IMG/VR virus record: IMGVR_UViG_3300025098_005131
Length of the DNA stretch: 64,000 bases
Source of the DNA: a virus
Taxonomy: Duplodnaviria; Caudoviricetes
Strand: one strand, 5' to 3'
This document shows, piece after piece, positions 1,567-63,999 of this stretch (position 1 is the first letter of the stretch; the number at the start of each line of letters is the position of its first letter). A program made the position numbers and the translations under genes. The notes beneath the pieces are model-generated. The model was not told where the DNA came from. It searched no databases and worked only from the letters and a program-made list of their open reading frames with translations.

Positions 1567-2767
1567 TTATTTTAGTCTTTCCCCATCGCAAAGTAATTTG
1601 TGCATTGCTACTCAACATTTCAGTGCATGCATAAAAAGGTGCTACATCGTAGAATTTAAATATTTTTTCTTCATCGTTGTATGTATAATCAATATTTTCT
1701 TCCAGAAGAGTCAAACCATTAAATATATTTGCTGGGTAATCTGCTAGTACTGGACCAATCTTACACATTATCTCTTCAATAATCGCGTTGAATGCACCAT
1801 TAACTTGTTGTGTATTAACAATATAGTTATAGTCAATTGAGTTTTGATTCAACACGTTACCACTGACACTTTGTAAAGCAGCAACGTTTGCATTGTCTAC
1901 ACCTAGCGTATACGTTGTTATACAAGGATTTTGAACAGTTGTTTGTCTGCAATTATCTGGATTAATACTGAAAATATTATTTTGCACAAAGTCTCGAGAA
2001 GGATCAATGCCTTCATTGGGCGATCCGTCACTAATTAGAATAATATAATAAGATTCATAATCAGTATTTCTAATTTTAGATAGAGCGCTATTTAAAGGGG
2101 AAAGAAAATTAGTTCCTCCTCCAGCGTTGTAAGTATTTAAAATAGACAATACGTTTAATTTGTGTTGCTGACCTTTTCCAATAGGAGTTTCTATTATAAC
2201 ATTGTCGTTGTAAAGAACTACTGAATAGTTTAAATTATAGTCAGCATTTACAAATTGCCTTGCAGTAGTTTTTAGCTGATTTATTCTATTTCCTTGCATA
2301 GAGCCGCTAAAGTCTAGCAAAAGTATAACAGCTGTGTCTATTAACTCAATGTCATGAACTTCTTCGTTTACCTCTAAGATGTTTTCTTTAGAGACATATC
2401 CTCTTCCTGGATCATATGTGGATGTAATTTTAAATCTTCTCTTACACAAATCTTCAGCATTACATTCGAGTCCTAAGTCTTCACAAGAAAAGTCTGGCTC
2501 TGGTGAATCAAGAATTATTGCACATTGGTTTAAAGTATTACTCGAACAAATTGTTTCAATGTCATTTGAATTTCTTATGCCTTCTCCTGCGTCAATACTA
2601 CACGTATCGAGCAGCTGTTTTTCGTAAGATATGTTTAAAGATATTCTTCCATATTGAATTACTATTAAAGAAATGCTAGCCAAGACAGCAGCTAGTAAAA
2701 CTGTTGTTAGTGCTGCAAATCCTTTACTTTGAAGACTTTTTGAGGTATATAAGATGTTTTGTTCCAT
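1556..2767 (-). CDS. TadG-like (Flp/Tad minor pilin) protein with von Willebrand factor A domain
   Basis: N-terminal GFAALTTVLLAAVLASISLIVIQYG hydrophobic helix followed by EKQLLDTCSIDAG (Tad N-terminal pattern). vWA MIDAS motif LLLDFSGSM (DxSxS), GGGTNF, ILISDGSPN. Confidence 0.75.
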   Translation of the reverse strand: MEQNILYTSKSLQSKGFAALTTVLLAAVLASISLIVIQYGRISLNISYEKQLLDTCSIDAGEGIRNSNDIETICSSNTLNQCAIILDSPEPDFSCEDLGLECNAEDLCKRRFKITSTYDPGRGYVSKENILEVNEEVHDIELIDTAVILLLDFSGSMQGNRINQLKTTARQFVNADYNLNYSVVLYNDNVIIETPIGKGQQHKLNVLSILNTYNAGGGTNFLSPLNSALSKIRNTDYESYYIILISDGSPNEGIDPSRDFVQNNIFSINPDNCRQTTVQNPCITTYTLGVDNANVAALQSVSGNVLNQNSIDYNYIVNTQQVNGAFNAIIEEIMCKIGPVLADYPANIFNGLTLLEENIDYTYNDEEKIFKFYDVAPFYACTEMLSSNAQITLRWGKTKINVR

Positions 2768-3494
2768 TGTAATTTTTATTTTCTATATTGTCTATATTCC
2801 AATAATGATTGCTCTGTTTAATCTGAGTATAAAACTCATGCATTAGCAAAACATCAATGTTTACACCCTGCTGTTTTAGAATGTCAGCAGCTAAGAGATT
2901 TGAATTAAACTTCCTGTCTCGACGTATTGCCTTCAACTCTACATATTTACCAGTGTCAGGATGATAAAAGTCCGGTGTGTATTGTTTGTCTCTTCCGTCA
3001 TATTGAACTGTAAATGTTTTGTGCTCATATATATATGGCTTATTTGTAGCTTCACACCACCTTGCATAGTCTGCTTCTAAAGATGATTTAAAGAAATAAT
3101 TTGAAGGTAAATCATACCTAAATCCTAGTCTGCCGTTAGAAGGTATTTCATGAAGACCACTGCTTTGTGCCTTGTTTTGACATTCCTTACCACAATACTT
3201 TGTTTCTCTGCCTTTAGGTCTTTGATATTCTATTGCACAATATTCACATTTAAGATTAACTCTTTCTTTTTTATTCTTTTTTAAATAACAAGCTCTAGAG
3301 CAATAAGTCTTTCCGCGTTTAGACTTAAATTCAATTCCACAAACTTCACATTGTTTTATTTCGTATTTGACGCTTGATTTGTTTTTGCACTCTTTAGAAC
3401 AATATTTAGATGTTTTTGCTCTTGAAGCGGGCTTCTTGTATTCTTTTTTACAACATTCACAAATTAATGTGACTTGGGTTGATGTTCTTGACAT
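2724..3494 (-). CDS. Free-standing PD-(D/E)xK endonuclease with three N-terminal zinc-ribbon repeats (homing-endonuclease-like)
   Basis: Three CxxC...YC(S/G)xxC repeats, then FKSSLEADYA...YIYE...YTPDFY...YVELKA. Confidence 0.75.
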   Translation of the reverse strand: MSRTSTQVTLICECCKKEYKKPASRAKTSKYCSKECKNKSSVKYEIKQCEVCGIEFKSKRGKTYCSRACYLKKNKKERVNLKCEYCAIEYQRPKGRETKYCGKECQNKAQSSGLHEIPSNGRLGFRYDLPSNYFFKSSLEADYARWCEATNKPYIYEHKTFTVQYDGRDKQYTPDFYHPDTGKYVELKAIRRDRKFNSNLLAADILKQQGVNIDVLLMHEFYTQIKQSNHYWNIDNIENKNYNGTKHLIYLKKSSK

Positions 3495-3544: not shown

Positions 3545-4531
3545 CTACTTAGGAAAGAATTGTTTTAGATCGATATCTTGCTCTTTAGCTTGATCTAAAT
3601 ATTTTAAAGGATTATAAAAGTAGATATTTGAATCTTTAATTGATTGCCAAGATTGTCGAATGCCTTCCTTTAAATCTCTTGTCCTACTAAAGCCCAAGGT
3701 ATCTACAAGTTTTTTATTGCTTAACCTATGATTTCCAAGATAATCAGTTTGTGGGTGCCATTGTATTACAGGCTTTAAATTAAGACCAGTTACTTCTTCT
3801 ATTAATTCTACAATTTCCAAAGTATTATGTGGGTTTTCTGCTGTAATATTGAAATCGTCGTTTAATATATTGTTTGTAATTAAGTCCATTATACTACTAC
3901 AAAAGTCCTCAACATGCATATAGTCTTTTATTTTTTCTGGATTTAAAAACATATCTAAACTATTTATTTTGTTTTTTAAACAGAACAAAGACTTAGATAT
4001 AAGAGAGTTCATGTCACCTTCTCCGCCGTAAGCAAATAGCGGTCTCACGACGAGCCAGCTTTTAGCGTTATTTTTAACTGTCATTTCACCTGCATATTTT
4101 TGAATTGCATAGTTTGTCCTAGGTAATATTTTGCTATCTTCAAAAATATCAGATTCTTGATATTGATATGTATCATAAATAACTGTCGTTCCAATATATA
4201 CGATCGTTGTGTTTGTATTATTAGCAGCTTCAGTTAGAACATGTGTGCCTAATATGTTTGTATTAATTGCTCGCTCAGGGTTTAATGCAACTACATCTGT
4301 ACCTACTAGGGCTGCATTGTGAACAATAACGTCAAGCTCTAAGTCTGAAAGTAGTTGTGACCACTCTTCAATAGAATTTCTATATACACAAACTTCTCCT
4401 ACTCCTGTACGAATATAATCTTGTGAATAAATACTTTTATCTAACGATACAAAAGTATGATTATAATTTTCTATTTGATTAGCCAAGTTAGTTGCAATAA
4501 AACCTTTTTCACCAGTGATGCCTATTCTCAT
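3545..4531 (-). CDS. NAD-dependent nucleotide-sugar epimerase/dehydratase (extended SDR)
   Basis: ITGEKGFIA Rossmann motif, DVIVHNAA, NILGT, catalytic YAIQK (YxxxK), KDYMHVED. Confidence 0.9.
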   Translation of the reverse strand: MRIGITGEKGFIATNLANQIENYNHTFVSLDKSIYSQDYIRTGVGEVCVYRNSIEEWSQLLSDLELDVIVHNAALVGTDVVALNPERAINTNILGTHVLTEAANNTNTTIVYIGTTVIYDTYQYQESDIFEDSKILPRTNYAIQKYAGEMTVKNNAKSWLVVRPLFAYGGEGDMNSLISKSLFCLKNKINSLDMFLNPEKIKDYMHVEDFCSSIMDLITNNILNDDFNITAENPHNTLEIVELIEEVTGLNLKPVIQWHPQTDYLGNHRLSNKKLVDTLGFSRTRDLKEGIRQSWQSIKDSNIYFYNPLKYLDQAKEQDIDLKQFFPK

Positions 4532-4779
4532 TAATTGTTTCCTTTAATAATTTTAACGACTTTAATGTCTTTTGTTTTAACGTTATACACTTTATTGCTT
4601 TGTGTATCTAGCATTTTATAGTCAAAAAACTTCTTAATACCATATTTTGTTTTATTCTCAAAAAGATATTCTCTACCTAAAACCAGTGCTGTTCGTGGTC
4701 CTAAAAATTGATTTTTAAAAACTTTATGCATAAATGTTACAAGATCAGAAGATTCCAGTCCTTCTGTGTAAGATGACAT
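4531..4779 (-). CDS. Small hypothetical protein
   Basis: 82 aa, GGGAG RBS upstream, TAATG overlap with the epimerase start. Confidence 0.6.
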   Translation of the reverse strand: MSSYTEGLESSDLVTFMHKVFKNQFLGPRTALVLGREYLFENKTKYGIKKFFDYKMLDTQSNKVYNVKTKDIKVVKIIKGNN

Positions 4780-4787
4780 ATAACTCC

Positions 4788-5045
4788 CTAACTTAGATAT
4801 TTAACTTGTATATCAATTATTTTGTGTATTGTTATATTCTCTACTTTACCATCCCAGAAAATGGTCATTCCGGTGGGTCTAAGACCATCTTTAAGAGATA
4901 ATCCTACTAATAAGCAATTTTCATATTTCTTTGGTTTATTATAATATGAATAATCAATAATTACACTTATCATTTTGCCAATATCGTTTTTGTCTAAATA
5001 AAAGTCTTGATTTAACCTTATAAAATCGCTGTTTATTTTCGTCAT
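4788..5045 (-). CDS. Small hypothetical protein, putative beta-barrel
   Basis: 85 aa, ATGA overlap with the upstream ORF, YENCLLV motif. Confidence 0.6.
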   Translation of the reverse strand: MTKINSDFIRLNQDFYLDKNDIGKMISVIIDYSYYNKPKKYENCLLVGLSLKDGLRPTGMTIFWDGKVENITIHKIIDIQVKYLS

Positions 5046-5260
5046 ACTGTCGTAACGCTAACAAATACATCCTCATCTTCTAAATCAACAGCCTGAAGTC
5101 TGCCTTTTTCTGTCATAAAAAGCAACAAGTCTTTATTTAAATTTCCTTTTTCAATGCATATCAAAAGGCAGTTTTGATAATTAGATATGAAGCTGTAACT
5201 CTTATACTGGATTGATATATTAACTATTTCTTTTATGTGTTGTTTAATTTTTTCTATCAA
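5042..5260 (-). CDS. Small hypothetical protein, putative beta-barrel
   Basis: The track starts it at 5296; TTG at 5260 is more plausible because it overlaps less with the upstream gene. YQNCLL...VDLED motif. Confidence 0.55.
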   Translation of the reverse strand: MIEKIKQHIKEIVNISIQYKSYSFISNYQNCLLICIEKGNLNKDLLLFMTEKGRLQAVDLEDEDVFVSVTTV

Positions 5261-5450
5261 GAACTTTATACTCCATAATGCTATAAGGCACAACATCAGT
5301 TATCTTATTGCCTATTACATAAATCATTGCAGAAAAATTTAGATCTTTTTTAATCTTATAGACTATCCCTAACTTTTCTTCTTCGTTCGAGTAAAGAAAA
5401 TTATATCTAATTAGGTCGCCTATTTTCAGGTCGTGTATATAATCTATCAT
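5244..5450 (-). CDS. Small hypothetical protein (KOW/SH3-like LKIGDLI)
   Basis: 68 aa; ATGA overlap with the Fpg stop. Confidence 0.6.
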   Translation of the reverse strand: MIDYIHDLKIGDLIRYNFLYSNEEEKLGIVYKIKKDLNFSAMIYVIGNKITDVVPYSIMEYKVLDRKN

Positions 5451-6265
5451 TGAAAATCTCTTTTTTTAGCTCCGATCGTTTGTCTTTCTCTAACCCAGTG
5501 TGTTGTCCTTTTATCGAGCGTCGTTTCTTTAATTACATTATGACCATTACAGTCTTTGTTTCTTCCATAAACAACAAAACCTTGAACAGCATTCCCATTA
5601 TTACCATCAAAAGTATAGTAACTTTGAATTGTTGCTCCTTGTTCATTATATGACTTGTTAATTACAAATCTTATCGCTTTATAAAGAGTTATCAGGTTTT
5701 TGTCTGTTAAATCTTTTATTAAAGAATGTGGATTTATACGTGAATACCATAAAGATTCTGCCTTGATATAATTACCAACTCCAGAAATAACCTTTTGATT
5801 CATCAATACATCACATATATTTTTGTTGTTTTTTTGTCTTAAAAATTTAATAAAATCAGATGAAGAAGGGGGATTAGACAACATGTCAGGCCCAATAGAT
5901 TTAAGCTTTTTTGCCAAATCTTTTTGATTTTTAATCTGAACTGTTCCAAAATTTCTAATATCATTGAAATACAATGTATCGTCCTCATAAAAGTTAATCT
6001 CTATTCTAGAATGATCTGTTTTTTTTCTAGACCAGTTTCCTGTCATTCCTAAAGTATTGAAAATAATTATGTCTTCTAAATCAAGCCATATAAACTTGCC
6101 TTTACAATTAAAGCTTTTAATTTCTTTGTCTAATAATGTTTCTAGGTTTGGAATTGGTTTTTTAATATATCTTCCGCTCAATATATTAACTGACTTTATT
6201 TGATAATGTCTAAAATTTTGATTTAGTTTATCAACAAACAATTTAACTTCAGGTCCTTCTGGAAT
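5447..6265 (-). CDS. mutM: Formamidopyrimidine-DNA glycosylase (Fpg/Nei family), ATT start
   Basis: Extending the tracked ORF upstream in frame gives ATT-CCA-GAA-GGA-CCT-GAA-GTT (PEGPEV catalytic N-terminus) behind AGGAAGG. Also KGKFIW, LGMTG, DIRNFG and H2TH NQKVISGVGNYIKAESLW. No Cys4 finger. Confidence 0.92.
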   Translation of the reverse strand: MPEGPEVKLFVDKLNQNFRHYQIKSVNILSGRYIKKPIPNLETLLDKEIKSFNCKGKFIWLDLEDIIIFNTLGMTGNWSRKKTDHSRIEINFYEDDTLYFNDIRNFGTVQIKNQKDLAKKLKSIGPDMLSNPPSSSDFIKFLRQKNNKNICDVLMNQKVISGVGNYIKAESLWYSRINPHSLIKDLTDKNLITLYKAIRFVINKSYNEQGATIQSYYTFDGNNGNAVQGFVVYGRNKDCNGHNVIKETTLDKRTTHWVRERQTIGAKKRDFQ

Positions 6266-6305
6266 AATACACCTTCCTAACTATTTTTCTACAAAATTAA
6301 AGCCT

Positions 6306-6515
6306 TTAATTGTTTAAAATCCTATTGGCTTCTGGGTCATCTAAGTCTGTATTTGCTAAATCTTTTTCATTTTCTTCCAAGTCAGGCAAGGTATTGTCAT
6401 GCACATAATTTGCTAAATCATCTTTTCCGACCCATTTAAGGAATTGCATTAGAGGGTGACCAATTATATTGTGAAATGCATAGTTTTTAATAAATTTTTC
6501 GTATTTAAAATTCAT
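6306..6515 (-). CDS. Hypothetical protein
   Basis: 69 aa ORF packed in the operon (HNIIGHPLMQ...VHDNTLP). Confidence 0.6.
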   Translation of the reverse strand: MNFKYEKFIKNYAFHNIIGHPLMQFLKWVGKDDLANYVHDNTLPDLEENEKDLANTDLDDPEANRILNN

Positions 6516-6518
6516 AGC

Positions 6519-6968
6519 TTATTCAATTGCATCTGCATAAGGTTCATTTGGTAAGATACCTGTTTCAATAATTCTATCAAGATAGTCTTCTAATTGTTCA
6601 AATGTTGTGCAGACCTTAATACCACTTCTCGCGAGCATTAAATTAAATTTTGCGCCTTTAGGAAGTCCGGCACAGAAATAGATTATAGGCTTATTAAATG
6701 CAAAAGCGTATCCTGCTTCCCAAATTGTACCAATATCTTTATCTCTAGTATTTACTAGTAAAAAGTCTGCTGTCTGTATATGATGAAGATTGCCACTAAA
6801 TGTTTCATCTTGCACGCTTTTTGGCGCATTAGGCGGGCAAACAAAAATTCTTCGAGGAGAAGCTAGTTCAAAGTGGTTAACTCGATCATCAAAAATCTTT
6901 TCCAGATGTGTAAGTTCTGCGTCTTGAATAGGATTAAACCAACCGCTTGCTAAATAAATCTTTTTCAT
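6519..6968 (-). CDS. Nucleoside 2-deoxyribosyltransferase family (NDT/Rcl/MilB-like nucleotide N-glycosidase)
   Basis: KIYLASGWF, ADFLLV, DIGTIWEAGYAFAFNKPII, FNLML. Confidence 0.88.
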   Translation of the reverse strand: MKKIYLASGWFNPIQDAELTHLEKIFDDRVNHFELASPRRIFVCPPNAPKSVQDETFSGNLHHIQTADFLLVNTRDKDIGTIWEAGYAFAFNKPIIYFCAGLPKGAKFNLMLARSGIKVCTTFEQLEDYLDRIIETGILPNEPYADAIE

Positions 6969-7021
6969 TAAATTGTTCCTTTTGTAAATAAATTAAATTT
7001 GTTGTTTATAATTGTTTTAGG

Positions 7022-7993
7022 TTAAAATTCATTATCTAGCTGCTGTCTAATTAAACTTACAGCTGCTACGTCATCGTTCCACATCCTTGTAAAGATTTTT
7101 TCTTCACCAGATTTGTTGCCATTAATCTCTTCACGACGACATGCATAAATTGAATCTTTTTCATTAAATTCAAATAAATCGTTCTTTGGTTCTGGCTGAT
7201 AAAGATTTGTGCCTCGTGAAGTAAAGGAACCATCGGGTAATTCAACTCTAAAAGTGCGAACATAATGCATGTCAGGTTTTTCAAAGTTTAAGCATGTAGA
7301 AACTTCTGGAATTGATTCGCAAACAATTTTTGCAATACGCGTTGCAATAATATTGTCTACTTCTGGTTGAATTTGCACATCTTGACGCTGTCTAATAAAA
7401 CCAATTAAATCTTTAAGATTAAATCGAGCAACGTAAAAAGTCTCAAGTGCCTTAGGCAAAATAACTCGTGCATCCATTAAAGACACAACTCGAGAATCAA
7501 CCATATCAGAATAAAGTTGTTTTGCTGCAGAAGCAACTTCAATAAATCGATGATGAAAGTCTGAATTTTCAACAGACTCAGGAACTAAAATGTTGTCATT
7601 CCTAAGATCACGATCACCGGTGCACTGCGCTGCAAATGAACCTGCTCTATGTCTAATTAAATGCGTCACTGTTTGTGTATCAATTCCGCTAATTTTAAAA
7701 GTAAAACCTAAACATTCCATAGGTGTAGGTAATGCTCTAAAATTAAGAACATCTTGTAAGTTAATTGAAGCTTCTTCTGGTAAAGCATTTTCAAATGAAG
7801 TCTCAGAAGGTGTGTCAGCCCAGGTTGCTTTGGTCATGTGCCAAGCAATTTTTTGAGCTTGTTCTCTAGTGGGCCCATCAATCAACTCAATGTTAAGTGA
7901 TTCTAAGTTATTAATGTAATTAGTATTAGGAACTTGATCAAATTTAAGCTCCATAGGAAGTGTGACTTGTTTAAGATCATTATTAATTGGCAA
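7022..7993 (-). CDS. Divergent ThyX-family flavoenzyme (second copy)
   Basis: TTG start with AAAGGAG RBS. PTPME...FTFKI, HLIRHRAGSFAAQCTGDR (RHRx7S with S->C), DARVILP, NLKDLIGFIRQR. Confidence 0.85.
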   Translation of the reverse strand: MPINNDLKQVTLPMELKFDQVPNTNYINNLESLNIELIDGPTREQAQKIAWHMTKATWADTPSETSFENALPEEASINLQDVLNFRALPTPMECLGFTFKISGIDTQTVTHLIRHRAGSFAAQCTGDRDLRNDNILVPESVENSDFHHRFIEVASAAKQLYSDMVDSRVVSLMDARVILPKALETFYVARFNLKDLIGFIRQRQDVQIQPEVDNIIATRIAKIVCESIPEVSTCLNFEKPDMHYVRTFRVELPDGSFTSRGTNLYQPEPKNDLFEFNEKDSIYACRREEINGNKSGEEKIFTRMWNDDVAAVSLIRQQLDNEF

Positions 7994-8020
7994 ATTTATT
8001 CTCCTTTGTATTTACCATTT

Positions 8021-8049
8021 ATTTTAATATTAAAAATTAAAATTTACAC
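8021..8049 (-). promoter_or_regulatory. Sigma70-like promoter GTGTAA-N17-TAAAAT (ThyX-like/NDT unit)
   Basis: Motif and spacing read directly from the sequence. Confidence 0.6.
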
Positions 8050-8051
8050 AT

Positions 8052-8702
8052 TTATGTTTTATTGATCTGGTTTCTTAACTGGATCAAAAGTTCTTTGTCT
8101 TTTCGTGAAGCACTTAAAGTTTTTAATACATCAGTAAAACTGACTTTTTTTAAAATGCAAGTAGTCATAATATATTCGTACAAAGAATCGATATCAGCTT
8201 GGACTGCATCTTTTTTTTCTATATCTAGATGTAAAACATTTTTATTAACGACAAATTGTAGTTCTTTAGCTAGAACGCAAAAAAGCGAGGTCTTGAATTT
8301 ATTTAAATCTTTAATTGTTAAATTCGAGGATATTATACATTCTATAAATCCTTCATCACTTTTATGTTTTTTATCATAATAAAAATTACAATTTAAAACT
8401 TCAAAATAAAAATTTTTAAAAGTATCAATTAAATTTAACGTAATGTCACACATAAAGTCGTAACATACGAGCAAAGAGTGGTTAAAGTTAATCTCATAGG
8501 TTTTATTAAAAATGTTTTTAAAGCTCGAGGTCGCTGTCATTTGTAAAATGTCAGACTCTATATTGATTGTAATGTTTCCGTTGTTTATCATTCCTGAAAT
8601 ATAAATTAAATCAAATTCAATAATTCGCCATATGTTGTCAAGATAATAATAAGACCTAAAGTTATTGTTTCTATATAGTTCTAGATCTTCGTGGAAAAAC
8701 AT
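8052..8702 (-). CDS. Hypothetical protein
   Basis: 216 aa with AAAGGTG RBS; lies between the NTP-PPase and ThyX-like genes. Confidence 0.65.
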   Translation of the reverse strand: MFFHEDLELYRNNNFRSYYYLDNIWRIIEFDLIYISGMINNGNITINIESDILQMTATSSFKNIFNKTYEINFNHSLLVCYDFMCDITLNLIDTFKNFYFEVLNCNFYYDKKHKSDEGFIECIISSNLTIKDLNKFKTSLFCVLAKELQFVVNKNVLHLDIEKKDAVQADIDSLYEYIMTTCILKKVSFTDVLKTLSASRKDKELLIQLRNQINKT

Positions 8703-8716
8703 ATTACACCTTTAGA

Positions 8717-9091
8717 TTAATACCCTTTTGTTAACCTTTCTTTAATTATCTCGTCTTTCTTTTTAAATGCATTGTAAAATTCGTCAACATCTACACCTAT
8801 TAAAATAATAAGAGAATAAAAGTAATTAAAAGCATCAACAATTTCTTCTAAAAACTCTTCTCTATTTATTTCTGGCACTTCTGTTTCTCTATGCGGCTTC
8901 CAGTTTTTTAAATGACCTAGTGCTTCAAACATTTCTTCTACACCTTTAAGAGCTGTTTCACGCAGTAAAGCTTGACTACTTTTACTTGAAATATTTACTG
9001 GCCAAGACGGATATGAATCTTTATATTTTTCTTTAATTAAGTGCATAAAGACTTCTCTTTTTTCAAAGATTTCGTCTAATCTATCTTGCAT
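8717..9091 (-). CDS. All-alpha NTP pyrophosphatase (dimeric dUTPase / T4 gp56 dCTPase / MazG-like)
   Basis: GVEEMFEAL...NWKPH...EEFLEEIVDAFNYF (EExxE...EExxD metal-binding pattern). Confidence 0.8.
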   Translation of the reverse strand: MQDRLDEIFEKREVFMHLIKEKYKDSYPSWPVNISSKSSQALLRETALKGVEEMFEALGHLKNWKPHRETEVPEINREEFLEEIVDAFNYFYSLIILIGVDVDEFYNAFKKKDEIIKERLTKGY

Positions 9092-9094
9092 GTT

Positions 9095-9313
9095 TTAACT
9101 TTCTGTCTCAAAACTAGATTCTTGCGATGCGTCTACCATTTTTTCAACTTGCTCGTTAAATATTTTTTCATATTCACTGTTTAAAACTACCTTATTCTTT
9201 TCATTTACTTCCATCTGCATCATTCTTAAATGATCAACAATGTCTGTTCCTGTTAATAGTGCCATTTGTATAAGTTTGACAATTTGTGCAATTGTTGTAT
9301 CGTCTAAATTCAT
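9095..9313 (-). CDS. Hypothetical phage protein
   Basis: 72 aa with AGGAG RBS. Confidence 0.65.
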   Translation of the reverse strand: MNLDDTTIAQIVKLIQMALLTGTDIVDHLRMMQMEVNEKNKVVLNSEYEKIFNEQVEKMVDASQESSFETES

Positions 9314-9321
9314 TTTTTCTC

Positions 9322-9681
9322 CTAAATTATTATGGGTCTTTTCTTTAAATTTTTATCTATAGTTTGATCGTCATGCTCCATTACTTTAATCATGTCTACT
9401 CCTTCTATCTTCTTGAGGGACTTAATCATATCTAAAAAAGGTTTTCTTGTTTCAATAAACGTGGGTATATAAGAAACGTTAAGCTCAATTAGTCTGTGTC
9501 CGTATGAAGAAACGACGTCTGATATTGGTCGTGTTTGCCTGACAGTTACAACTCCCGGAAGAGCTCTCATATCTGTCATGATGTCTAAAACAGTTGGATC
9601 TTCTCTTTCTTCGATTTTTATTCTACATCTTACTAAGGTGTTAACTAAGTCAGTATGTCTTTCTAGTATTAAGTTTTTCAT
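9322..9681 (-). CDS. Hypothetical protein (ACT/ferredoxin-like beta-alpha pattern; possible head-internal protein)
   Basis: 119 aa, AGGAG RBS, MKNLILE start, MRALPGVVTV and LKKIEGVDMI repeats. Confidence 0.6.
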   Translation of the reverse strand: MKNLILERHTDLVNTLVRCRIKIEEREDPTVLDIMTDMRALPGVVTVRQTRPISDVVSSYGHRLIELNVSYIPTFIETRKPFLDMIKSLKKIEGVDMIKVMEHDDQTIDKNLKKRPIII

Positions 9682-9705
9682 ATAATTCTCCTTCTATTAT
9701 AATAA

Positions 9706-10410
9706 CTATTTATTATTGAGAATATAACTTTCTACTGTGACTGGCCAAAGTTCCTGAATAATCTCAAGCATTTTACTAGCCAATGCTTGAATTTCTAGCT
9801 GTGATCCTTCATGAGTTCTAAGCTTAATAAATTTTAAAATATTATTTAGATTAGCAGTCGCATAATATTCTGTATATAGATTTTGAGGAAGAATCATTCT
9901 TGCTTGCTCACGAGCAATACCTTTTTTAATCATATCATAATATAATTTAACAGAATTTTGTACGTGATAATCTACAGCTTCATTACATAGCCTACTTTCA
10001 AGTAAAATCGGATAAGAATCCATTTGTGGATTAATTTGGTTATCTATGTTAGATGCTTGTCTATTAGACTTATGCTGCGTCCTATAAGATTTTGGAATAT
10101 AAAATTCCATGTTTACATCTGTATATCGACGTGATATTTCATTATAAGACCATGTCCTATGTCTATGGTGTTGTGATCTAACAAATAAAGGAACTTTTAT
10201 TCTAAATGTAGCAATGTTATGTTCTAAAGTAGAAGTATGTTGATGATCAATTAAATAATTGATCAGCTTTTTGTCTTTACTATCTAAAGTTTCTTTCTGG
10301 ACTCCAAAAGAAACACGAGCAGAATTAACAACAGTAATATCGTTACCCATATGTTGTACTAGCTCTATTTTTCCAATATTGTCTTTATAAAGATAATGTG
10401 TATTTGTCAT
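9706..10410 (-). CDS. thyX: Flavin-dependent thymidylate synthase ThyX
   Basis: VVNSARVSF, HTSTLEH, RSQHHRHRTWSYNEISRRY (canonical RHRx7S), REQARMILP, FIKLR. Confidence 0.95.
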   Translation of the reverse strand: MTNTHYLYKDNIGKIELVQHMGNDITVVNSARVSFGVQKETLDSKDKKLINYLIDHQHTSTLEHNIATFRIKVPLFVRSQHHRHRTWSYNEISRRYTDVNMEFYIPKSYRTQHKSNRQASNIDNQINPQMDSYPILLESRLCNEAVDYHVQNSVKLYYDMIKKGIAREQARMILPQNLYTEYYATANLNNILKFIKLRTHEGSQLEIQALASKMLEIIQELWPVTVESYILNNK

Positions 10411-15004: not shown

Positions 15005-15490
15005 TTAATCTGAACTACCAATCTTCCCATGATTTCTCTGAGAAGATGTTGTAATGTTTAAATATTCTTCTTTGTCTACAATAGAGAATTGATTGTCACA
15101 TTTAACAACAACAATTTGAACGGGTAATTTTACGTTTGAGTCTAATATAAATTCTTCTGAACCTACGTTAACTAAATTAACAAAAACTTCACCTGTATAC
15201 CCATAGTCAATAACACCTGCTCTTACTTTAAGTGGTGTCTTTGTAATCGATCCTCTTTCTTGAATTAGCGCAACATAACCTTTAGGCACTTGCATTTTTA
15301 AACCGGTTGGAATTAATGTTTTATTGTTTTTAGGTAAGACTGATTGTGGGCAAATTGTTACTTTATTACCTGCATTGTATAGATCGAGACCAGCGCTTTC
15401 TCCATTATATGCAGGAGAGTAATCTTCTACAGCTATTTTATTTGTCCCTAAAGTAAACTTTAAACTTTCCATTAAAAAAATATTAACCAT
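15005..15490 (-). CDS. dut: Trimeric dUTPase (start may be ATG 15472)
   Basis: AGLDL, IPTGL, AGVIDYGYTGE, RNHGKIGSS. Confidence 0.93.
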   Translation of the reverse strand: MVNIFLMESLKFTLGTNKIAVEDYSPAYNGESAGLDLYNAGNKVTICPQSVLPKNNKTLIPTGLKMQVPKGYVALIQERGSITKTPLKVRAGVIDYGYTGEVFVNLVNVGSEEFILDSNVKLPVQIVVVKCDNQFSIVDKEEYLNITTSSQRNHGKIGSSD

Positions 15491-62154: not shown

Positions 62155-63999
62155 TTAGATAATGTTCATGTCGAGGCATGTAACTGATCCGTAGAAGTCA
62201 GCGCGAACCATCTTCTTACCGTAACGAGTCATCACGCCCTTACGTGGTGTGAAGTCCTCAGGCTGGAAGATTGTAGGAGTAACGATCAATGGAACATACG
62301 GAGCGTAAACGAAACCAGTCTCTAGGTAAGAACCACCCTTGTAACCAACAAGGATCTTGTTGCGTGGGAAGTATGGGTCTTTGTAAACTGTGAAGCGGTT
62401 AGAAAGAGTACCAACCTTCTCAGCGCCCATTGTGAAAGGAGCACCAACTTGTCCGTCACCGTCAATGCTATAGCTAGGACGATAAAGAACTGAAGCCTCA
62501 AGAATTGTTGCAACATCAGGAGAAACTACGATAAAGTTTGCAGAACCACGTAGAGTCTTACGGTGAATCTCATTAGCAACGTCAATAACTGTCTCAGTCA
62601 AAGTCTCATACCACTCACGAACTGTACCAGTGAAAGCTGGTCCAGGGTTAAGTGTTGATGTACGAGCAACCTCTGCACCAGTACGCTTGTTAACAAATTT
62701 ACCAGGTGAACGACTCCAGAAGAAGTTAGCACCCTTAGCACCTGTTAGAAGATCACCAAGAATCTCGCGATCAATCTCTAGAGCAATTTGCTCAGAAAGA
62801 ATCTGAGTAAGCTCTACCTCAGCATCCATTGAGTGGTATGCGTTAAGGTCTTGAGCAAGCTCAGGGCTCCAACGTGCACGTAACTTACGTGTTTGTGCAG
62901 TTACAGGAATCGACTCAATCTTAATATCAATCTCTGGGATTGTAGGTGTACCGTCAGTGGTGAAGTCTGCCTCAAATGCTGGAGCACCAGCAACCTCACC
63001 AAAGCCTTGAGCTGTAGCCATTGACGCGCCGTCAGCCTTAACAAAAGAAACTGTTACAGCAGAAAGATCTTCTGCAGCAAGTGTTGCTGCACCGTTAGTT
63101 CTTATTACAAAGCGAATTGCTGCATTTGCTGCTGTAAGATCTTGATCAACGTCTGCAACAAACTTACCTGTAGCGACATCAAACGTACCTAGCTGGTTTA
63201 GTCTTCTTACATTTAATAAAGAACCTTGCTGAACTGCTCCTGCTACTACTTTAAGTTTGCCACCATCTCCTGCTAAGTGTAATGCAACGTCTTTAATTGC
63301 TGTCTTATCAAGACCCTCAGAAGAAAATGGATTTGTAGTTGCATTATCAATACGTAAAGAGTTTAATGTGAGGTGTAAAAGTGAATATTTGTCAGCAATT
63401 GATGCGTCTGCAATTCTTTCAATAAGTTGTGAATCAAATTGCAAAGCTTTAAGGTCAGCAAGTGATGTAGTATTTAAAGAATTAACACCAGTTAAAGGGG
63501 CCTCTGCGTCTGCGTTATACGAACCTAATTGTGCATCAGCGATAGTAAATCTATTATTAACATCACCGGCTGCTGCCTGTCCTAGCTTAGCAGCAACTTT
63601 AGGATCTTGTCCATCTAGAACTGTAATGTGGCGACGTGAAAAACCACTACCAGCAAGGTCATATTGACCGCCAACAGCATCGGCGCCGTCTTGGATTTTT
63701 CTACCTGCGGGAGATCCGTAAATAGACTCACCAGCCTTGTAACCACCTTGGTCACTGCCGTATGTGTAGTCTAGATAAAAGAGAAGACCACTTGGAAGAC
63801 TCATAGGTTGAATTGAAACTAGCTCGTTTGCTACGAGACCACCGAAAACACGGCGAACAATTGGGAATGCGATGTTAGTGAAACCACCAACGTCACCGCT
63901 ACCCATTGAGTTACTCTCGCGAAGAGCTTGTGCTGCCTGGTTCTCAAGAAGAGTAGCCATATTCTCACGATTTACTTCTTCCATACCGCGAAGAAGACC
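62155..63999 (-). CDS. Major capsid protein (T4 gp23-like), 5'-truncated
   Basis: The frame is open to the edge (GLLRGMEEVNRENMA). FPIVRRVFGGLVANELVSIQPMSLPSGLLFYLDY, TRKLRARWSPELAQDLNAYH, YAPYVPL, PRKGVMTRYGK. Confidence 0.97.
   Translation of the reverse strand, partial: GLLRGMEEVNRENMATLLENQAAQALRESNSMGSGDVGGFTNIAFPIVRRVFGGLVANELVSIQPMSLPSGLLFYLDYTYGSDQGGYKAGESIYGSPAGRKIQDGADAVGGQYDLAGSGFSRRHITVLDGQDPKVAAKLGQAAAGDVNNRFTIADAQLGSYNADAEAPLTGVNSLNTTSLADLKALQFDSQLIERIADASIADKYSLLHLTLNSLRIDNATTNPFSSEGLDKTAIKDVALHLAGDGGKLKVVAGAVQQGSLLNVRRLNQLGTFDVATGKFVADVDQDLTAANAAIRFVIRTNGAATLAAEDLSAVTVSFVKADGASMATAQGFGEVAGAPAFEADFTTDGTPTIPEIDIKIESIPVTAQTRKLRARWSPELAQDLNAYHSMDAEVELTQILSEQIALEIDREILGDLLTGAKGANFFWSRSPGKFVNKRTGAEVARTSTLNPGPAFTGTVREWYETLTETVIDVANEIHRKTLRGSANFIVVSPDVATILEASVLYRPSYSIDGDGQVGAPFTMGAEKVGTLSNRFTVYKDPYFPRNKILVGYKGGSYLETGFVYAPYVPLIVTPTIFQPEDFTPRKGVMTRYGKKMVRADFYGSVTCLDMNII

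What the first reader, a model, noticed from the sequence alone, without database searches (positions are those of the whole stretch)
3545..10410. Candidate undescribed pyrimidine-modification pathway built on a re-purposed ThyX
Seen in sequence: a canonical ThyX (RHR-TWSYNEI-S-RRY) and a second ThyX-fold gene (7022-7993) reading RHR-AGSFAAQ-C-TGD. In the second copy the active-site Ser is Cys and the following dUMP-binding Arg/Tyr are lost. It is clustered with an all-alpha NTP pyrophosphatase (although a trimeric dUTPase already exists at 15005), an NDT-family N-glycosidase, an SDR nucleotide-sugar epimerase/dehydratase, Fpg and a 216-aa unknown. Established: T4 gp56 dCTPase removes the canonical nucleotide so that a modified one is incorporated. 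NDT-family members (MilB, BlsM, DNPH1/Rcl) cleave CMP/hmCMP/hmdUMP. PolB (polyoxin) is a ThyX paralogue with altered substrate. Inference: the phage makes a non-canonical pyrimidine nucleotide, possibly glycosylated afterwards with an unusual sugar, as anti-restriction/anti-CRISPR armour. No kinase or glycosyltransferase is visible in this window.
Basis: partly seen in the sequence, partly recalled or inferred. Interest (0 to 1): 0.8.

Follow-up and report, generated by a model that had tools for sequence, protein, structure and literature searches.

The report
Rewired ThyX–deoxyribosyltransferase phage nucleotide module
A giant marine phage has a normal thymidylate synthase and also a rewired copy; that copy sits next to a deoxyribosyltransferase gene in many unrelated uncultured phages, which suggests an undescribed route to an unusual DNA pyrimidine, but the chemistry is untested.

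Summary
9706-10410 is a textbook ThyX. 7022-7993 is a 323-aa ThyX-fold paralogue (RHRAGSFAAQCTGDR), flanked by an all-alpha NTP pyrophosphatase (8717-9091) and an NDT-family gene (6519-6968).

Comparative genomics shows these three genes form a real unit. I examined 174 phage loci in 13 paralogue lineages, on PolA, PolB and Pol III backbones. The paralogue lies beside the NDT gene wherever the contig allows. It usually also has a 5'-deoxynucleotidase (HD, or HAD in the marine lineage), an all-alpha PPase and a thymidylate-kinase-like protein. NDT::kinase and glycosyltransferase::paralogue fusions exist.

The paralogue is almost absent from 185,579 prokaryote genomes and occurs in one cultured phage, Geobacillus GR1. 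SDR, Fpg and the 216-aa ORF do not travel with it outside this lineage.

The paralogue keeps the FAD, phosphate and O4 arginines but lacks Ser88, Arg90-Tyr91 and His53. It coexists with a canonical ThyX or ThyA in 4 of 14 complete genomes.

- **Best reading (0.4):** a pool-level pathway to a non-thymine, probably hydroxymethyl-type, deoxyuridylate.
- **Main rival (0.27):** a divergent dTMP-supply module.

No paper on this family was found. First-stage notes of this scan flagged the same paralogue in six other genomes.

The parts
7022..7993 (-). ThyX paralogue (ThyXp), the core enzyme. It has the ThyX fold with signature RHRxxSFSAQC[TS][GA]D[RK] and a C-terminal extension of about 90 aa.
   Evidence: Pfam Thy1 5.1e-19. 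AF2 pLDDT 95.3, and Foldseek hits only ThyX and PolB. Family alignment A1. Alignment to TmThyX.
6519..6968 (-). Nucleoside 2'-deoxyribosyltransferase-family protein, the obligate partner of ThyXp.
   Evidence: Pfam 4.1e-12; PDB 6evs 1.3e-8. 40% identical to the Geobacillus phage GR1 copy. Within 6 kb of ThyXp in 163 of 174 loci and 11 of 13 lineages; ten of the eleven exceptions are loci cut at a contig end, the eleventh is the short L093. Catalytic Y5, D78, E84, N109 and the C-terminal Glu are invariant.
8717..9091 (-). All-alpha (MazG / dimeric-dUTPase-like) NTP pyrophosphatase, a frequent module member.
   Evidence: PHROG 12184 3.7e-16. EMFE...EIVD metal motifs. Same family within 6 kb of ThyXp in 9 of 13 lineages. 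Homologous to the N-domain of the 311-aa PPase-HAD fusion found in relatives.
9095..9313 (-). 72-aa ORF that always sits beside the PPase in the marine lineage. Function unknown.
   Evidence: tblastn hit in 65 of 81 loci of the first set, next to the PPase wherever both are seen. No Pfam or PHROG match.
9706..10410 (-). Canonical ThyX. This is context: an ordinary dTMP synthase kept alongside ThyXp.
   Evidence: Thy1 1.3e-49 with all signature residues. Present with ThyXp in the complete relatives G025 and G029.
15005..15490 (-). Trimeric dUTPase. This is context: it makes a second, dUTP-specific PPase redundant.
   Evidence: Pfam dUTPase 5.1e-13.
8052..8702 (-). 216-aa AT-rich ORF inserted between the PPase and ThyXp. 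Not part of the unit.
   Evidence: No Pfam or PHROG hit. 25-50% identity or absent in most close relatives, and absent from all other lineages.
3545..4531 (-). SDR epimerase/dehydratase. A neighbour specific to this lineage and a possible accessory; its role is unproven.
   Evidence: Pfam 8.3e-24. Directly downstream of NDT in the most diverged marine relatives such as L071. Absent near ThyXp in all other lineages.
5447..6265 (-). Fpg/Nei DNA glycosylase, probably starting at ATT 6265. A neighbour only within this lineage.
   Evidence: Pfam H2TH 1.4e-15. Upstream in-frame I-PEGPEV preceded by AGGAAGG. Not found near ThyXp outside the marine lineage.

Best explanation
The real unit in the window is three genes: the all-alpha NTP pyrophosphatase (8717-9091), the ThyX paralogue (7022-7993) and the nucleoside deoxyribosyltransferase (6519-6968). 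It is a reduced form of a phage-specific module. Elsewhere the module also carries a 5'-deoxynucleotidase (HD YfbR-like, or a PPase-HAD fusion), a thymidylate-kinase-like P-loop protein, often a dCMP deaminase, and in one lineage a GT-A glycosyltransferase fused to the paralogue.

Proposed mechanism:
1. ThyXp still binds FAD and a uracil-type deoxynucleoside monophosphate, but it no longer completes the ThyX reaction as a reductive methylation.
2. Having lost the Ser88/Tyr91 'lid' and Arg90, it releases a C5-substituted deoxyuridylate with an acceptor hydroxyl. 5-hydroxymethyl-dUMP is the simplest candidate.
3. The PPase (plus the nucleotidase where present) and NDT take the competing canonical pyrimidine nucleotide down to the nucleoside and base, and pass its deoxyribose on to uracil.
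4. A kinase raises the product to the triphosphate, and it enters phage DNA in place of part of T.

Shown: gene identities, residue pattern, family-wide linkage, gene fusions, phage-only distribution.
Inferred: substrate, product, direction of the NDT reaction, incorporation into DNA.
For: (1) Residues. RHR, S83, R147 and R174 are kept. S88, R90, Y91, H53, N85 and E86 are replaced by a different conserved motif, C[TS][GA]D[RK]. Ser88 and Tyr91 are described as strictly conserved and critical, and Tyr as the solvent lid over C5/N5 (PMC11940539, PMC6514825).

(2) Linkage. NDT lies within 6 kb in 163 of 174 loci and 11 of 13 lineages. HD nucleotidase is in 11 lineages, all-alpha PPase in 9, TMPK-like P-loop in 7 and dCMP deaminase in 4. 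These are on Pol III-alpha, PolA and PolB backbones.

(3) Non-orthologous replacement. In 54 loci (53 marine-lineage, plus L165) a PPase::HAD 5'(3')-deoxynucleotidase fusion sits directly upstream of ThyXp, where other lineages have HD.

(4) Fusions. NDT::P-loop in L113. GT-A::ThyXp in five diverged proteins, with IPxYKRE and DND motifs, Foldseek hits to GT-A transferases and the ThyXp signature. A glycosyltransferase fused to the enzyme makes sense only if the product carries an acceptor group.

(5) Coexistence with a full ordinary dTMP route. Canonical ThyX or ThyA is present in 4 of 14 complete genomes. dCMP deaminase is present in the four large relatives searched, and the window itself carries a trimeric dUTPase. 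ThyXp is better conserved than canonical ThyX among close relatives: 92-94% against 69-70%.

(6) Distribution. Only 3 hits in 185,579 species genomes, all on MAG contigs. Among 50,697 phage records only GR1 has ThyXp. NDT homologues occur in only 23 of those records, whereas the same ThyXp query hit 346 records, all but GR1 weak partial matches that read as ordinary ThyX. The NDT link is therefore specific to ThyXp.

(7) The partner enzymes are of the dU/dT type: NT5C-like, TMPK-like, dUTPase_2 and UDG.
Against: - No product, substrate or DNA chemistry was measured. Only assembled contigs, not raw reads, were available.
- In 10 of 14 complete genomes ThyXp is the only TS-like gene, as expected for an ordinary phage thymidylate synthase.
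- A canonical ThyX in the same genome as a putative dT-clearing branch would be a futile cycle, unless replacement of T is partial or the cleared nucleotide is not dT.
- Neither the window nor its closest complete relative has a recognisable TMPK-like kinase or GT2. The window also lacks any nucleotidase.
- The gained Cys plus Asp would suit a cytosine substrate better.
- The GT-A fusion is confined to one PolB-phage lineage, and its model is of moderate quality (pLDDT 68).
- All ThyXp phages are AT-rich, at most 47% GC, which also fits a high thymidylate demand.
Confidence: 0.4

Rival explanations
1. Thymidylate-supply and salvage module. ThyXp is a divergent but genuine flavin-dependent dTMP synthase. 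The nucleotidase, NDT and kinase move deoxyribose from surplus host dNMPs onto uracil or thymine. dUTPase_2 and dCMP deaminase feed dUMP. Together they serve AT-rich phage genomes.
For: - ThyXp is the sole TS-like gene in 10 of 14 complete genomes.
- Every partner is a classical dU/dT-metabolism enzyme.
- All loci are 25-47% GC. GR1 is 32% GC, reportedly well below its host (PMC10237291).
- The S88C mutant of T. maritima ThyX exists as a solved structure and is the best sequence match.
Against: - Loss of Tyr91, Arg90 and His53, which are described as conserved and critical.
- Long-term coexistence with canonical ThyX or ThyA plus a trimeric dUTPase.
- A GT-A glycosyltransferase fused to the enzyme has no role if the product is dTMP.
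- A fused PPase-nucleotidase degrades one nucleotide to the nucleoside instead of supplying it.
- The family is absent from cellular genomes.
Confidence: 0.27
2. T4-like logic on a ThyX scaffold. ThyXp methylates or hydroxymethylates dCMP, using the gained Cys as the C6 nucleophile and the gained Asp to hold N3/N4. The all-alpha PPase is a dCTPase like T4 gp56, and the modified dC replaces C.
For: - The Cys-x-x-Asp gained in the substrate loop is conserved in most members. From established knowledge, all known cytosine-C5 enzymes use a Cys plus a carboxylate.
- It coexists with an intact dTMP route.
- T4 gp56 belongs to the dimeric d(C/U)TPase group (recalled, not tested).
- GT fusion as in glucosyl-hmC phages.
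Against: - The O4-binding Arg174 equivalent is nearly invariant.
- The partners are of dU/dT type: NT5C-like, TMPK-like, UDG and dCMP deaminase beside the gene.
- The Cys is replaced by G, S, A or T in some members.
- A nucleotidase plus NDT has no obvious role if dCMP is the substrate.
Confidence: 0.15
3. The module makes a free modified base or nucleoside rather than a DNA precursor. This would resemble MilA/MilB or BcmA/BcmB, where a TS-like enzyme is followed by an NDT-family enzyme that releases the base. The product could be an antimetabolite or a signalling molecule.
For: The TS-like plus NDT-family pairing matches those antibiotic pathways (established knowledge). The order nucleotidase then NDT would take a modified dNMP to the nucleoside and then the base.
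Against: - The NDT protein is of the nucleoside-transferase type, not the MilB/DNPH1 type.
- The kinase fused to NDT points towards re-phosphorylation.
- The module sits among replication genes in every backbone.
- No transporter or tailoring cluster is present.
Confidence: 0.08
4. ThyXp is catalytically dead or has a non-nucleotide role, such as a regulatory or structural flavoprotein. The neighbourhood would then be ordinary clustering of early genes.
For: Several canonical catalytic residues are missing.
Against: - The replacement motif, the phosphate- and FAD-binding residues and the C-terminal extension are all strongly conserved.
- 92-97% identity among relatives in which the canonical ThyX copy is only 69-70% identical.
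- The linkage recurs on unrelated backbones and in gene fusions.
Confidence: 0.03

Closest known systems
Flavin-dependent thymidylate synthase ThyX (EC 2.1.1.148; T. maritima TM0449, M. tuberculosis ThyX)
   Same: Same fold (Foldseek prob 1.0, target-normalised TM 0.65-0.77). Keeps the RHR motif, the first Ser, and the Arg147 and Arg174 equivalents.
   Different: - Ser88 is Cys. Arg90-Tyr91 is replaced by G-D-R. His53, Asn85 and Glu86 are lost.
- About 40 extra residues at the N-terminus and about 90 at the C-terminus.
- Found only in phages.
- Always linked to NDT.
PolB, the UMP/dUMP methylase of polyoxin biosynthesis (a ThyX paralogue; PDB 4p5a, 4p5b)
   Same: A ThyX-fold paralogue recruited to a new pathway. 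It is a structural hit at E about 5e-11.
   Different: PolB still methylates and differs mainly in sugar recognition. It belongs to a Streptomyces antibiotic cluster, not to a phage replication module. No specific sequence relationship to ThyXp was seen.
Pool-level pyrimidine replacement in phages: T4 (gp42 dCMP hydroxymethylase, gp56 dCTPase, gp1 kinase, glucosyltransferases) and the Bacillus hmU phages SPO1, SP8 and phi-e (dUMP hydroxymethylase, dTTPase-dUTPase, dTMP nucleotidase, dCMP deaminase, hmdUMP kinase)
   Same: The same set of activities is predicted: a C5 one-carbon enzyme, an NTP pyrophosphatase, a 5'-nucleotidase, dCMP deaminase, a TMPK-like kinase and sometimes a glycosyltransferase.
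   Different: The known hydroxymethylases all have the ThyA fold and use a Cys nucleophile with folate only. Here the enzyme has the ThyX (flavin) fold. An NDT enzyme is not part of any described system. In this window a canonical ThyX is retained.
MilA/MilB and BcmA/BcmB (TS-like hydroxymethylase plus NDT-family N-glycosidase); DNPH1 (hmdUMP N-hydrolase)
   Same: A pyrimidine C5 one-carbon enzyme paired with an NDT-family protein.
   Different: Those TS-like enzymes have the ThyA fold. Those NDT-family members act on 5'-phosphates. The phage protein matches a true nucleoside transferase best (6evs 1.3e-8, against DNPH1 at about 0.02-0.2) and lacks the GSIRGG-type phosphate loop.
Z-genome phages (PurZ with the HD dATPase DatZ and the MazG-like MazZ)
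   Same: The same logic: a small HD phosphohydrolase and a MazG-like PPase clear or convert canonical nucleotides beside the enzyme that makes the new one.
   Different: That system replaces a purine. It has no ThyX or NDT component, and no sequence relationship was tested beyond family level.

Membership tests
ThyX / FDTS (dTMP synthase) | Thy1 fold | tested here: met
   Pfam PF02511 5.1e-19, above its cut-off. The AF2 model (pLDDT 95) hits only ThyX and PolB structures.
ThyX / FDTS (dTMP synthase) | ThyX motif RHRxxSxxxxSxR(Y): the RHR and the first Ser | tested here: met
   R114-H115-R116 and S119. Nearly invariant among close family members.
ThyX / FDTS (dTMP synthase) | Second Ser (Ser88), Arg90 and Tyr91 of the motif | tested here: not met
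   C124, G126 and D127 in the pairwise alignment to T. maritima ThyX. The family signature is C[TS][GA]D[RK]. An Arg follows one position later.
ThyX / FDTS (dTMP synthase) | Folate-stacking His53 | tested here: not met
   TPMEC aligns to TPFEH. The family consensus at this site is LETI, with no His.
ThyX / FDTS (dTMP synthase) | dUMP phosphate and O4 arginines (Arg147, Arg174) | tested here: met
   R176 and R203 are at least 90% conserved across 45 diverse members.
ThyX / FDTS (dTMP synthase) | Converts dUMP to dTMP | not testable with these tools
   Needs an enzyme assay or thyA complementation.
Nucleoside 2'-deoxyribosyltransferase (NDT) family | Catalytic Glu with the Asp, Asn and N-terminal Tyr that hold the deoxyribose; C-terminal residue reaching into the neighbouring active site | tested here: met
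   Y5, D78, E84, N109 and the C-terminal E149 are conserved at 94% or more in 136 distinct sequences. Pfam PF05014 4.1e-12. PDB 6evs 1.3e-8 over the full length.
DNPH1 / MilB-type nucleotide N-glycosidases | 5'-phosphate binding loop (GSIRGG-type) and Ser in place of the NDT Asp | tested here: not met
   The N-terminus reads YLASGWFNPIQ and Asp78 is kept. DNPH1 chains match only at E 0.02-0.2 over about 50 residues. Invariant T74, K77 and S115 could still bind a phosphate, so action on nucleotides is not excluded.
All-alpha NTP pyrophosphatases (MazG / HisE / dimeric dUTPase) | Four-helix protein with ExxE ... ExxD metal motifs | tested here: met
   EMFE at 53 and EIVD at 83. PHROG 12184 3.7e-16. 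Cluster members reach dUTPase_2 at 8.9e-14. Pfam PRA-PH on the window protein itself is below its cut-off.
All-alpha NTP pyrophosphatases (MazG / HisE / dimeric dUTPase) | Which dNTP it hydrolyses | not testable with these tools
   Needs an enzyme panel. A trimeric dUTPase in the same window argues against pure dUTP specificity.
Known phage hydroxymethyl-pyrimidine pathways (T4, SPO1 type) | ThyA-fold pyrimidine hydroxymethylase | tested here: not met
   No PF00303 match in the closest complete relatives G025 and G029. The candidate enzyme has the ThyX fold.
Known phage hydroxymethyl-pyrimidine pathways (T4, SPO1 type) | Dedicated dNMP kinase and DNA glycosyltransferase | tested here: inconclusive
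   Neither is in the window. G025 has no PF02223 or PF00535 hit. Both are present beside or fused to ThyXp in other lineages. Other kinase and GT families were not searched.
Thymidine hypermodification systems (5-HMUDK, aGPT-Pplase) | hmU DNA kinase and amino-acid:DNA transferases | not tested
   No model for these families was available in the searches run. GR1 has an amidoligase and a gamma-glutamylcyclotransferase 11 kb away by its deposited annotation only.

The most novel reading that the evidence does not exclude
ThyXp would be the first ThyX-fold enzyme that makes a DNA-modification precursor. It would be a flavin-dependent synthase of 5-hydroxymethyl-type deoxyuridylate. One possibility is that water captures the exocyclic-methylene intermediate. 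Another is a folate-independent flavin oxidation of the dTMP methyl group, in the manner of p-cresol methylhydroxylase; this would explain the lost folate-stacking His and the retained canonical ThyX. With NDT, a nucleotidase or PPase and a kinase, it would form a new and widespread pathway that puts a non-canonical, sometimes glycosylated pyrimidine into the DNA of abundant marine jumbo phages and at least ten other phage lineages.
Probability: 0.4. Interest if true: 0.85.

Novelty: new variant of a known kind. Interest (0 to 1): 0.72.

Why it matters
- **New scaffold for a known strategy.** Phage DNA hypermodification shapes restriction, CRISPR and glycosylase-based defence. It also supplies enzymes for biotechnology. 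All known pool-level C5 pyrimidine pathways use ThyA-fold enzymes. A ThyX-fold, flavin-based route with an obligate deoxyribosyltransferase would be a new biochemical solution.
- **Abundance and effect on sequencing.** The family has hundreds of clusters at 50% identity and is very common in Tara, ENA and JGI marine data, including jumbo phages of about 240-280 kb. An unrecognised base there would affect how marine viromes are sequenced, amplified and interpreted.
- **It is testable.** One cultured phage, Geobacillus GR1, carries the module.
- **Value if the ordinary reading is right.** The family would still be a ThyX that works without Tyr91, Arg90 and His53. That bears on the debated ThyX mechanism and on ThyX as a drug target.

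Tried and rejected
- **DNA similarity.** blastn of 3545-10410 against 50,697 phage records found no match.
- **Genome and reads.** No whole genome is held for the window. The public runs that hold the DNA are available only as assembled contigs, so no test for a modified base at read level was possible.
- **Scan failure.** The first related-loci run with the 45-sequence alignment failed because no stretch was conserved enough. Smaller alignments worked.
- **216-aa ORF.** No Pfam, PHROG or GR1 counterpart. The Atlas feature hits to cap methyltransferase-like clusters score in the range of chance for an AT-rich protein. Dropped.
- **SDR and Fpg as pathway members.** Rejected for lack of any co-occurrence outside the marine lineage. 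Within that lineage the link cannot be separated from shared ancestry.
- **Cys as an essential nucleophile.** Weakened: it is G, S, A or T in several members.
- **GR1 'glycosyltransferase' (459 aa).** No Pfam hit and no similarity to the fused GT-A domain, so it is not used as evidence.
- **P0282 as a GT-A::kinase fusion.** Only a P-loop-level match (E 0.005), so it is treated as weak.
- **DUF6378 protein beside ThyXp in five lineages.** No solved relative.
- **The window PPase against the GR1 all-alpha 'dUTPase'.** Not significantly similar pairwise (E 0.067). The link rests on family-level HMMs.
- **Literature.** Searches for a described ThyX paralogue with NDT in phages found nothing relevant.
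- **Complex prediction.** Not run, because no physical binding is claimed.

Full report
**1. What is in the window**

All genes from about 1.3 kb to 58 kb are on the minus strand. They form the replication and nucleotide block of a T4-like myovirus:
- a gp23-like capsid protein at 62155-63984;
- sheath, baseplate and gp15-like proteins;
- gp32, RecA, DnaB, a PolA fragment, RNR alpha and beta, and a trimeric dUTPase.

The nearest relatives are marine (Tara, ENA, JGI) contigs. The closest complete one is a 239.5-kb genome with terminal repeats, so this is a marine jumbo phage.

- The canonical ThyX (9706-10410) reads RHRTWSYNEISRRY.
- The paralogue, here called ThyXp (7022-7993), reads RHRAGSFAAQCTGDR.
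- Around ThyXp lie an all-alpha NTP pyrophosphatase (8717-9091), a 216-aa orphan ORF (8052-8702), an NDT-family gene (6519-6968), an Fpg/Nei gene (5447-6241) and an SDR (3545-4531).

**2. The paralogue itself**

Alignment to T. maritima ThyX shows the following:
- Kept: R78/H79/R80, S83, R147 and R174.
- Changed: H53->C, N85->A, E86->A, S88->C, R90->G and Y91->D, with an Arg one position later.

An AlphaFold model built on 45 family members is confident (pLDDT 95.3). It matches only ThyX and PolB structures. It has an N-terminal addition and a C-terminal addition of about 90 residues.

The published work read here calls Ser88 and Tyr91 strictly conserved and critical. It places them at the flavin-carbinolamine and describes the Tyr as a lid that shields uracil C5 and flavin N5 from solvent (PMC11940539, PMC6514825).

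ThyXp therefore fails part of the membership test for a canonical dTMP synthase, while keeping the parts that bind FAD, the 5'-phosphate and O4.

**3. It is a family, not a one-off**

A full HMMER scan of 1.84 billion representatives gave 722 hits at E <= 1e-3, of which 138 were at E <= 1e-10.
- The full-length relatives of about 290-350 aa share the motif RHRxxSFSAQC[TS][GA]D[RK], an invariant ATW near residue 58, and the C-terminal extension.
- The Cys is common but not universal.

The family is essentially restricted to phages:
- One scan of 185,579 prokaryote species genomes found three hits, all on MAG contigs.
- Among 50,697 sequenced phage records only Geobacillus phage GR1 carries it, at 42% identity over 94% of the length.

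Homing endonuclease and intein insertions occur in some members.

**4. The neighbourhood test**

I collected 174 loci from IMG/VR scans, exact-protein look-ups and GR1. I then called ORFs, grouped ThyXp into 13 lineages (single linkage at 55% identity), and clustered every ORF within 6 kb.

| Neighbour within 6 kb | Lineages (of 13) | Notes |
|---|---|---|
| NDT | 11 | 163 of 174 loci |
| HD phosphohydrolase, YfbR/HDDC2/OxsA type | 11 | |
| All-alpha PPase | 9 | |
| Small P-loop protein, weak but repeated thymidylate-kinase/dNK similarity | 7 | |
| dCMP deaminase | 4 | |
| Canonical ThyX | 2 | |

Ten of the eleven loci without NDT have ThyXp within about 1 kb of a contig end. The eleventh is the short, divergent L093.

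The usual gene order is [PPase]-NDT-HD-[P-loop]-ThyXp-[PPase]. The backbones differ:
- Pol III alpha: GR1, L084, L089, L126.
- PolA: the window, L087.
- PolB: L092, L093, L178.

As a control, NDT homologues occur in only 23 of 50,697 phage records. By contrast, the ThyXp query hit 346 phage records, and all but GR1 were weak partial matches that read as ordinary ThyX. The NDT link is therefore a property of ThyXp, not of phage ThyX in general.

**5. What does not belong**

SDR, Fpg and the 216-aa ORF are found near ThyXp only in the marine lineage.
- The 216-aa ORF is 25-50% identical or absent in most close relatives.
- SDR lies directly after NDT in the most diverged marine relatives, for example L071. 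Those phages share many other genes with the window, so this cannot be separated from common descent.

**6. Extra evidence from replacements and fusions**

(a) In 54 loci (53 of them in the marine lineage, plus L165), a 311-aa gene sits directly upstream of ThyXp.
- Its C-terminal half carries the HAD motifs (DiDD, LLTxRP, EK, AIDDSPKH) and matches 5'(3')-deoxyribonucleotidases.
- Its N-terminal half is homologous to the window's all-alpha PPase.
- It is therefore a PPase::nucleotidase fusion standing where other lineages have HD.
- The window lacks this gene.

(b) In L113 the NDT gene is fused to an N-terminal P-loop domain.

(c) In a PolB-phage lineage ThyXp is fused to an N-terminal domain.
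- The domain has IPxYKRE and D-N-D motifs and reaches the Pfam GT2 cut-off when searched alone.
- Its model (pLDDT 68, core above 80) hits GT-A glycosyltransferases.
- Five fusion proteins are only 36-40% identical in that domain, and all carry the ThyXp signature.
- Their operons read dUTPase_2-NDT-HD-P-loop-GT::ThyXp-dCMP deaminase.

(d) L126 adds a UDG-superfamily gene and a divergent ThyA-like gene to the same operon.

**7. Relation to ordinary thymidylate synthesis**

Fourteen ThyXp genomes are complete: GR1, plus 13 with a CheckV estimate of at least 90%.
- Ten have no other TS-like gene.
- Three also have a canonical ThyX, including both complete relatives of the window.
- One also has a ThyA.

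All four large relatives of the window that were searched carry a dCMP deaminase, and the window itself carries a trimeric dUTPase. A full standard dTMP route therefore stands beside the ThyXp unit.

Among close relatives ThyXp is 92-94% identical where the canonical ThyX is only 69-70%. ThyXp is thus under at least as strong constraint.

No thymidylate-kinase-like gene and no GT2 was found in the closest complete relative.

**8. Interpretation**

The shown facts are:
- a conserved, phage-only ThyX derivative with a rebuilt C5/N5 environment;
- an obligate link to an apparently active nucleoside-type deoxyribosyltransferase;
- a usual link to enzymes that take a deoxynucleotide down to the nucleoside;
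- kinase and glycosyltransferase fusions.

My preferred reading (0.4) has four elements:
- ThyXp makes a non-thymine, acceptor-bearing C5-substituted deoxyuridylate, with 5-hydroxymethyl-dUMP the simplest candidate.
- The retained O4 arginine and the dU/dT-type partners favour a uracil ring.
- The lost Tyr lid would allow water in, and the GT fusion needs an acceptor group.
- The PPase, nucleotidase and NDT branch clears a competing canonical nucleotide and recycles its deoxyribose.

From memory, this mirrors the classical enzymology of the Bacillus hmU and uracil-DNA phages.

The main weakness is that a canonical ThyX in the same genome makes full exclusion of T implausible. Replacement would have to be partial, or the cleared nucleotide is not dT, or dTMP is itself the substrate. 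The last case is the folate-independent oxidation idea given under the novel case.

The rivals are:
- **Divergent but ordinary dTMP-supply and deoxyribose-salvage module for AT-rich phages (0.27).** It is helped by ThyXp being the sole TS in most small genomes and by the uniformly low GC.
- **dCMP-directed enzyme (0.15).** It is helped by the gained Cys and Asp.
- **Free base or nucleoside product (0.08).**
- **Dead or regulatory paralogue (0.03).**

**9. Novelty and status**

No paper in the searchable library describes this family or its NDT link. The GR1 paper reports nothing about its DNA chemistry.

First-stage notes of this scan flagged the same paralogue in this genome and six others, without tests. 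The comparative evidence here is new to the scan.

The kind of system, pool-level reprogramming for a modified base, is known. A ThyX-fold core with an obligate NDT partner is a new variant.

Nothing here proves a modified base. The decisive experiments are listed separately, and GR1 makes them feasible.

Noticed in passing
window 6230-6310 (minus strand): The Fpg/Nei ORF called from TTG 6241 lacks the catalytic N-terminal Pro-Glu. In frame just upstream the sequence reads I-P-E-G-P-E-V, preceded by AGGAAGG. The gene therefore probably starts at an ATT codon (6265-6263), which would restore the N-terminal Pro.
   Followed up: partly
L040:2761-3696, L071:8758-9696 and 52 other loci (all but L165 marine-lineage): A 311-aa fusion of an all-alpha NTP-PPase domain and a HAD 5'(3')-deoxyribonucleotidase domain sits directly upstream of ThyXp. 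The window and its nearest relatives (for example L002) lack it.
   Followed up: yes
L092:7726-9381, L179:923-2641 (proteins P0139, P0278-P0281): GT-A glycosyltransferase::ThyXp fusion proteins of 541-577 aa in PolB phages. In L178 the same gene appears cut off by a DDE transposase insertion directly after the GT part.
   Followed up: yes
L113:6567-7490: The NDT gene is fused to an N-terminal P-loop (AAA_14-like) domain, giving 307 aa.
   Followed up: partly
L126:5453-9947: One operon holds dUTPase_2, a TMPK-like gene, a UDG-superfamily gene, NDT, HD, ThyXp and a divergent ThyA-like gene of 302 aa. The same genome (G012) also has a canonical ThyX, so it carries three TS-like genes.
   Followed up: partly
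proteins P0158 and P0275: ThyXp genes invaded by selfish elements: an HNH / His-Me homing endonuclease in P0158 and an intein in P0275.
   Followed up: no
L001 (Geobacillus phage GR1) 11286-11885: A nitroreductase-family flavoprotein lies directly upstream of ThyXp in GR1 and could be its flavin reductase. An amidoligase and a gamma-glutamylcyclotransferase lie 11 kb downstream by the deposited annotation.
   Followed up: no
window 2724-3494: A 256-aa ORF conserved in the marine lineage matches HNH-endonuclease PHROGs (phrog_1271, E 4.8e-17). A VWA-domain protein follows at 1556-2767.
   Followed up: no
all ThyXp loci L001-L177: Every locus that carries ThyXp is AT-rich to moderate, at 25-47% GC. 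None comes from a GC-rich phage, although canonical ThyX is common in such phages.
   Followed up: partly
L071:5122-6340 and L126:6296-7012: DNA glycosylase genes (HhH-GPD, Fpg/Nei, UDG-superfamily) recur next to the module in different phages. Whether they police the phage's own base composition is unknown.
   Followed up: no
window 23664-58565 (exact ORF not mapped): One of the 20 large ORFs in the structural region is a glyoxalase/bleomycin-resistance/dioxygenase superfamily protein (Pfam E 6.7e-15).
   Followed up: no
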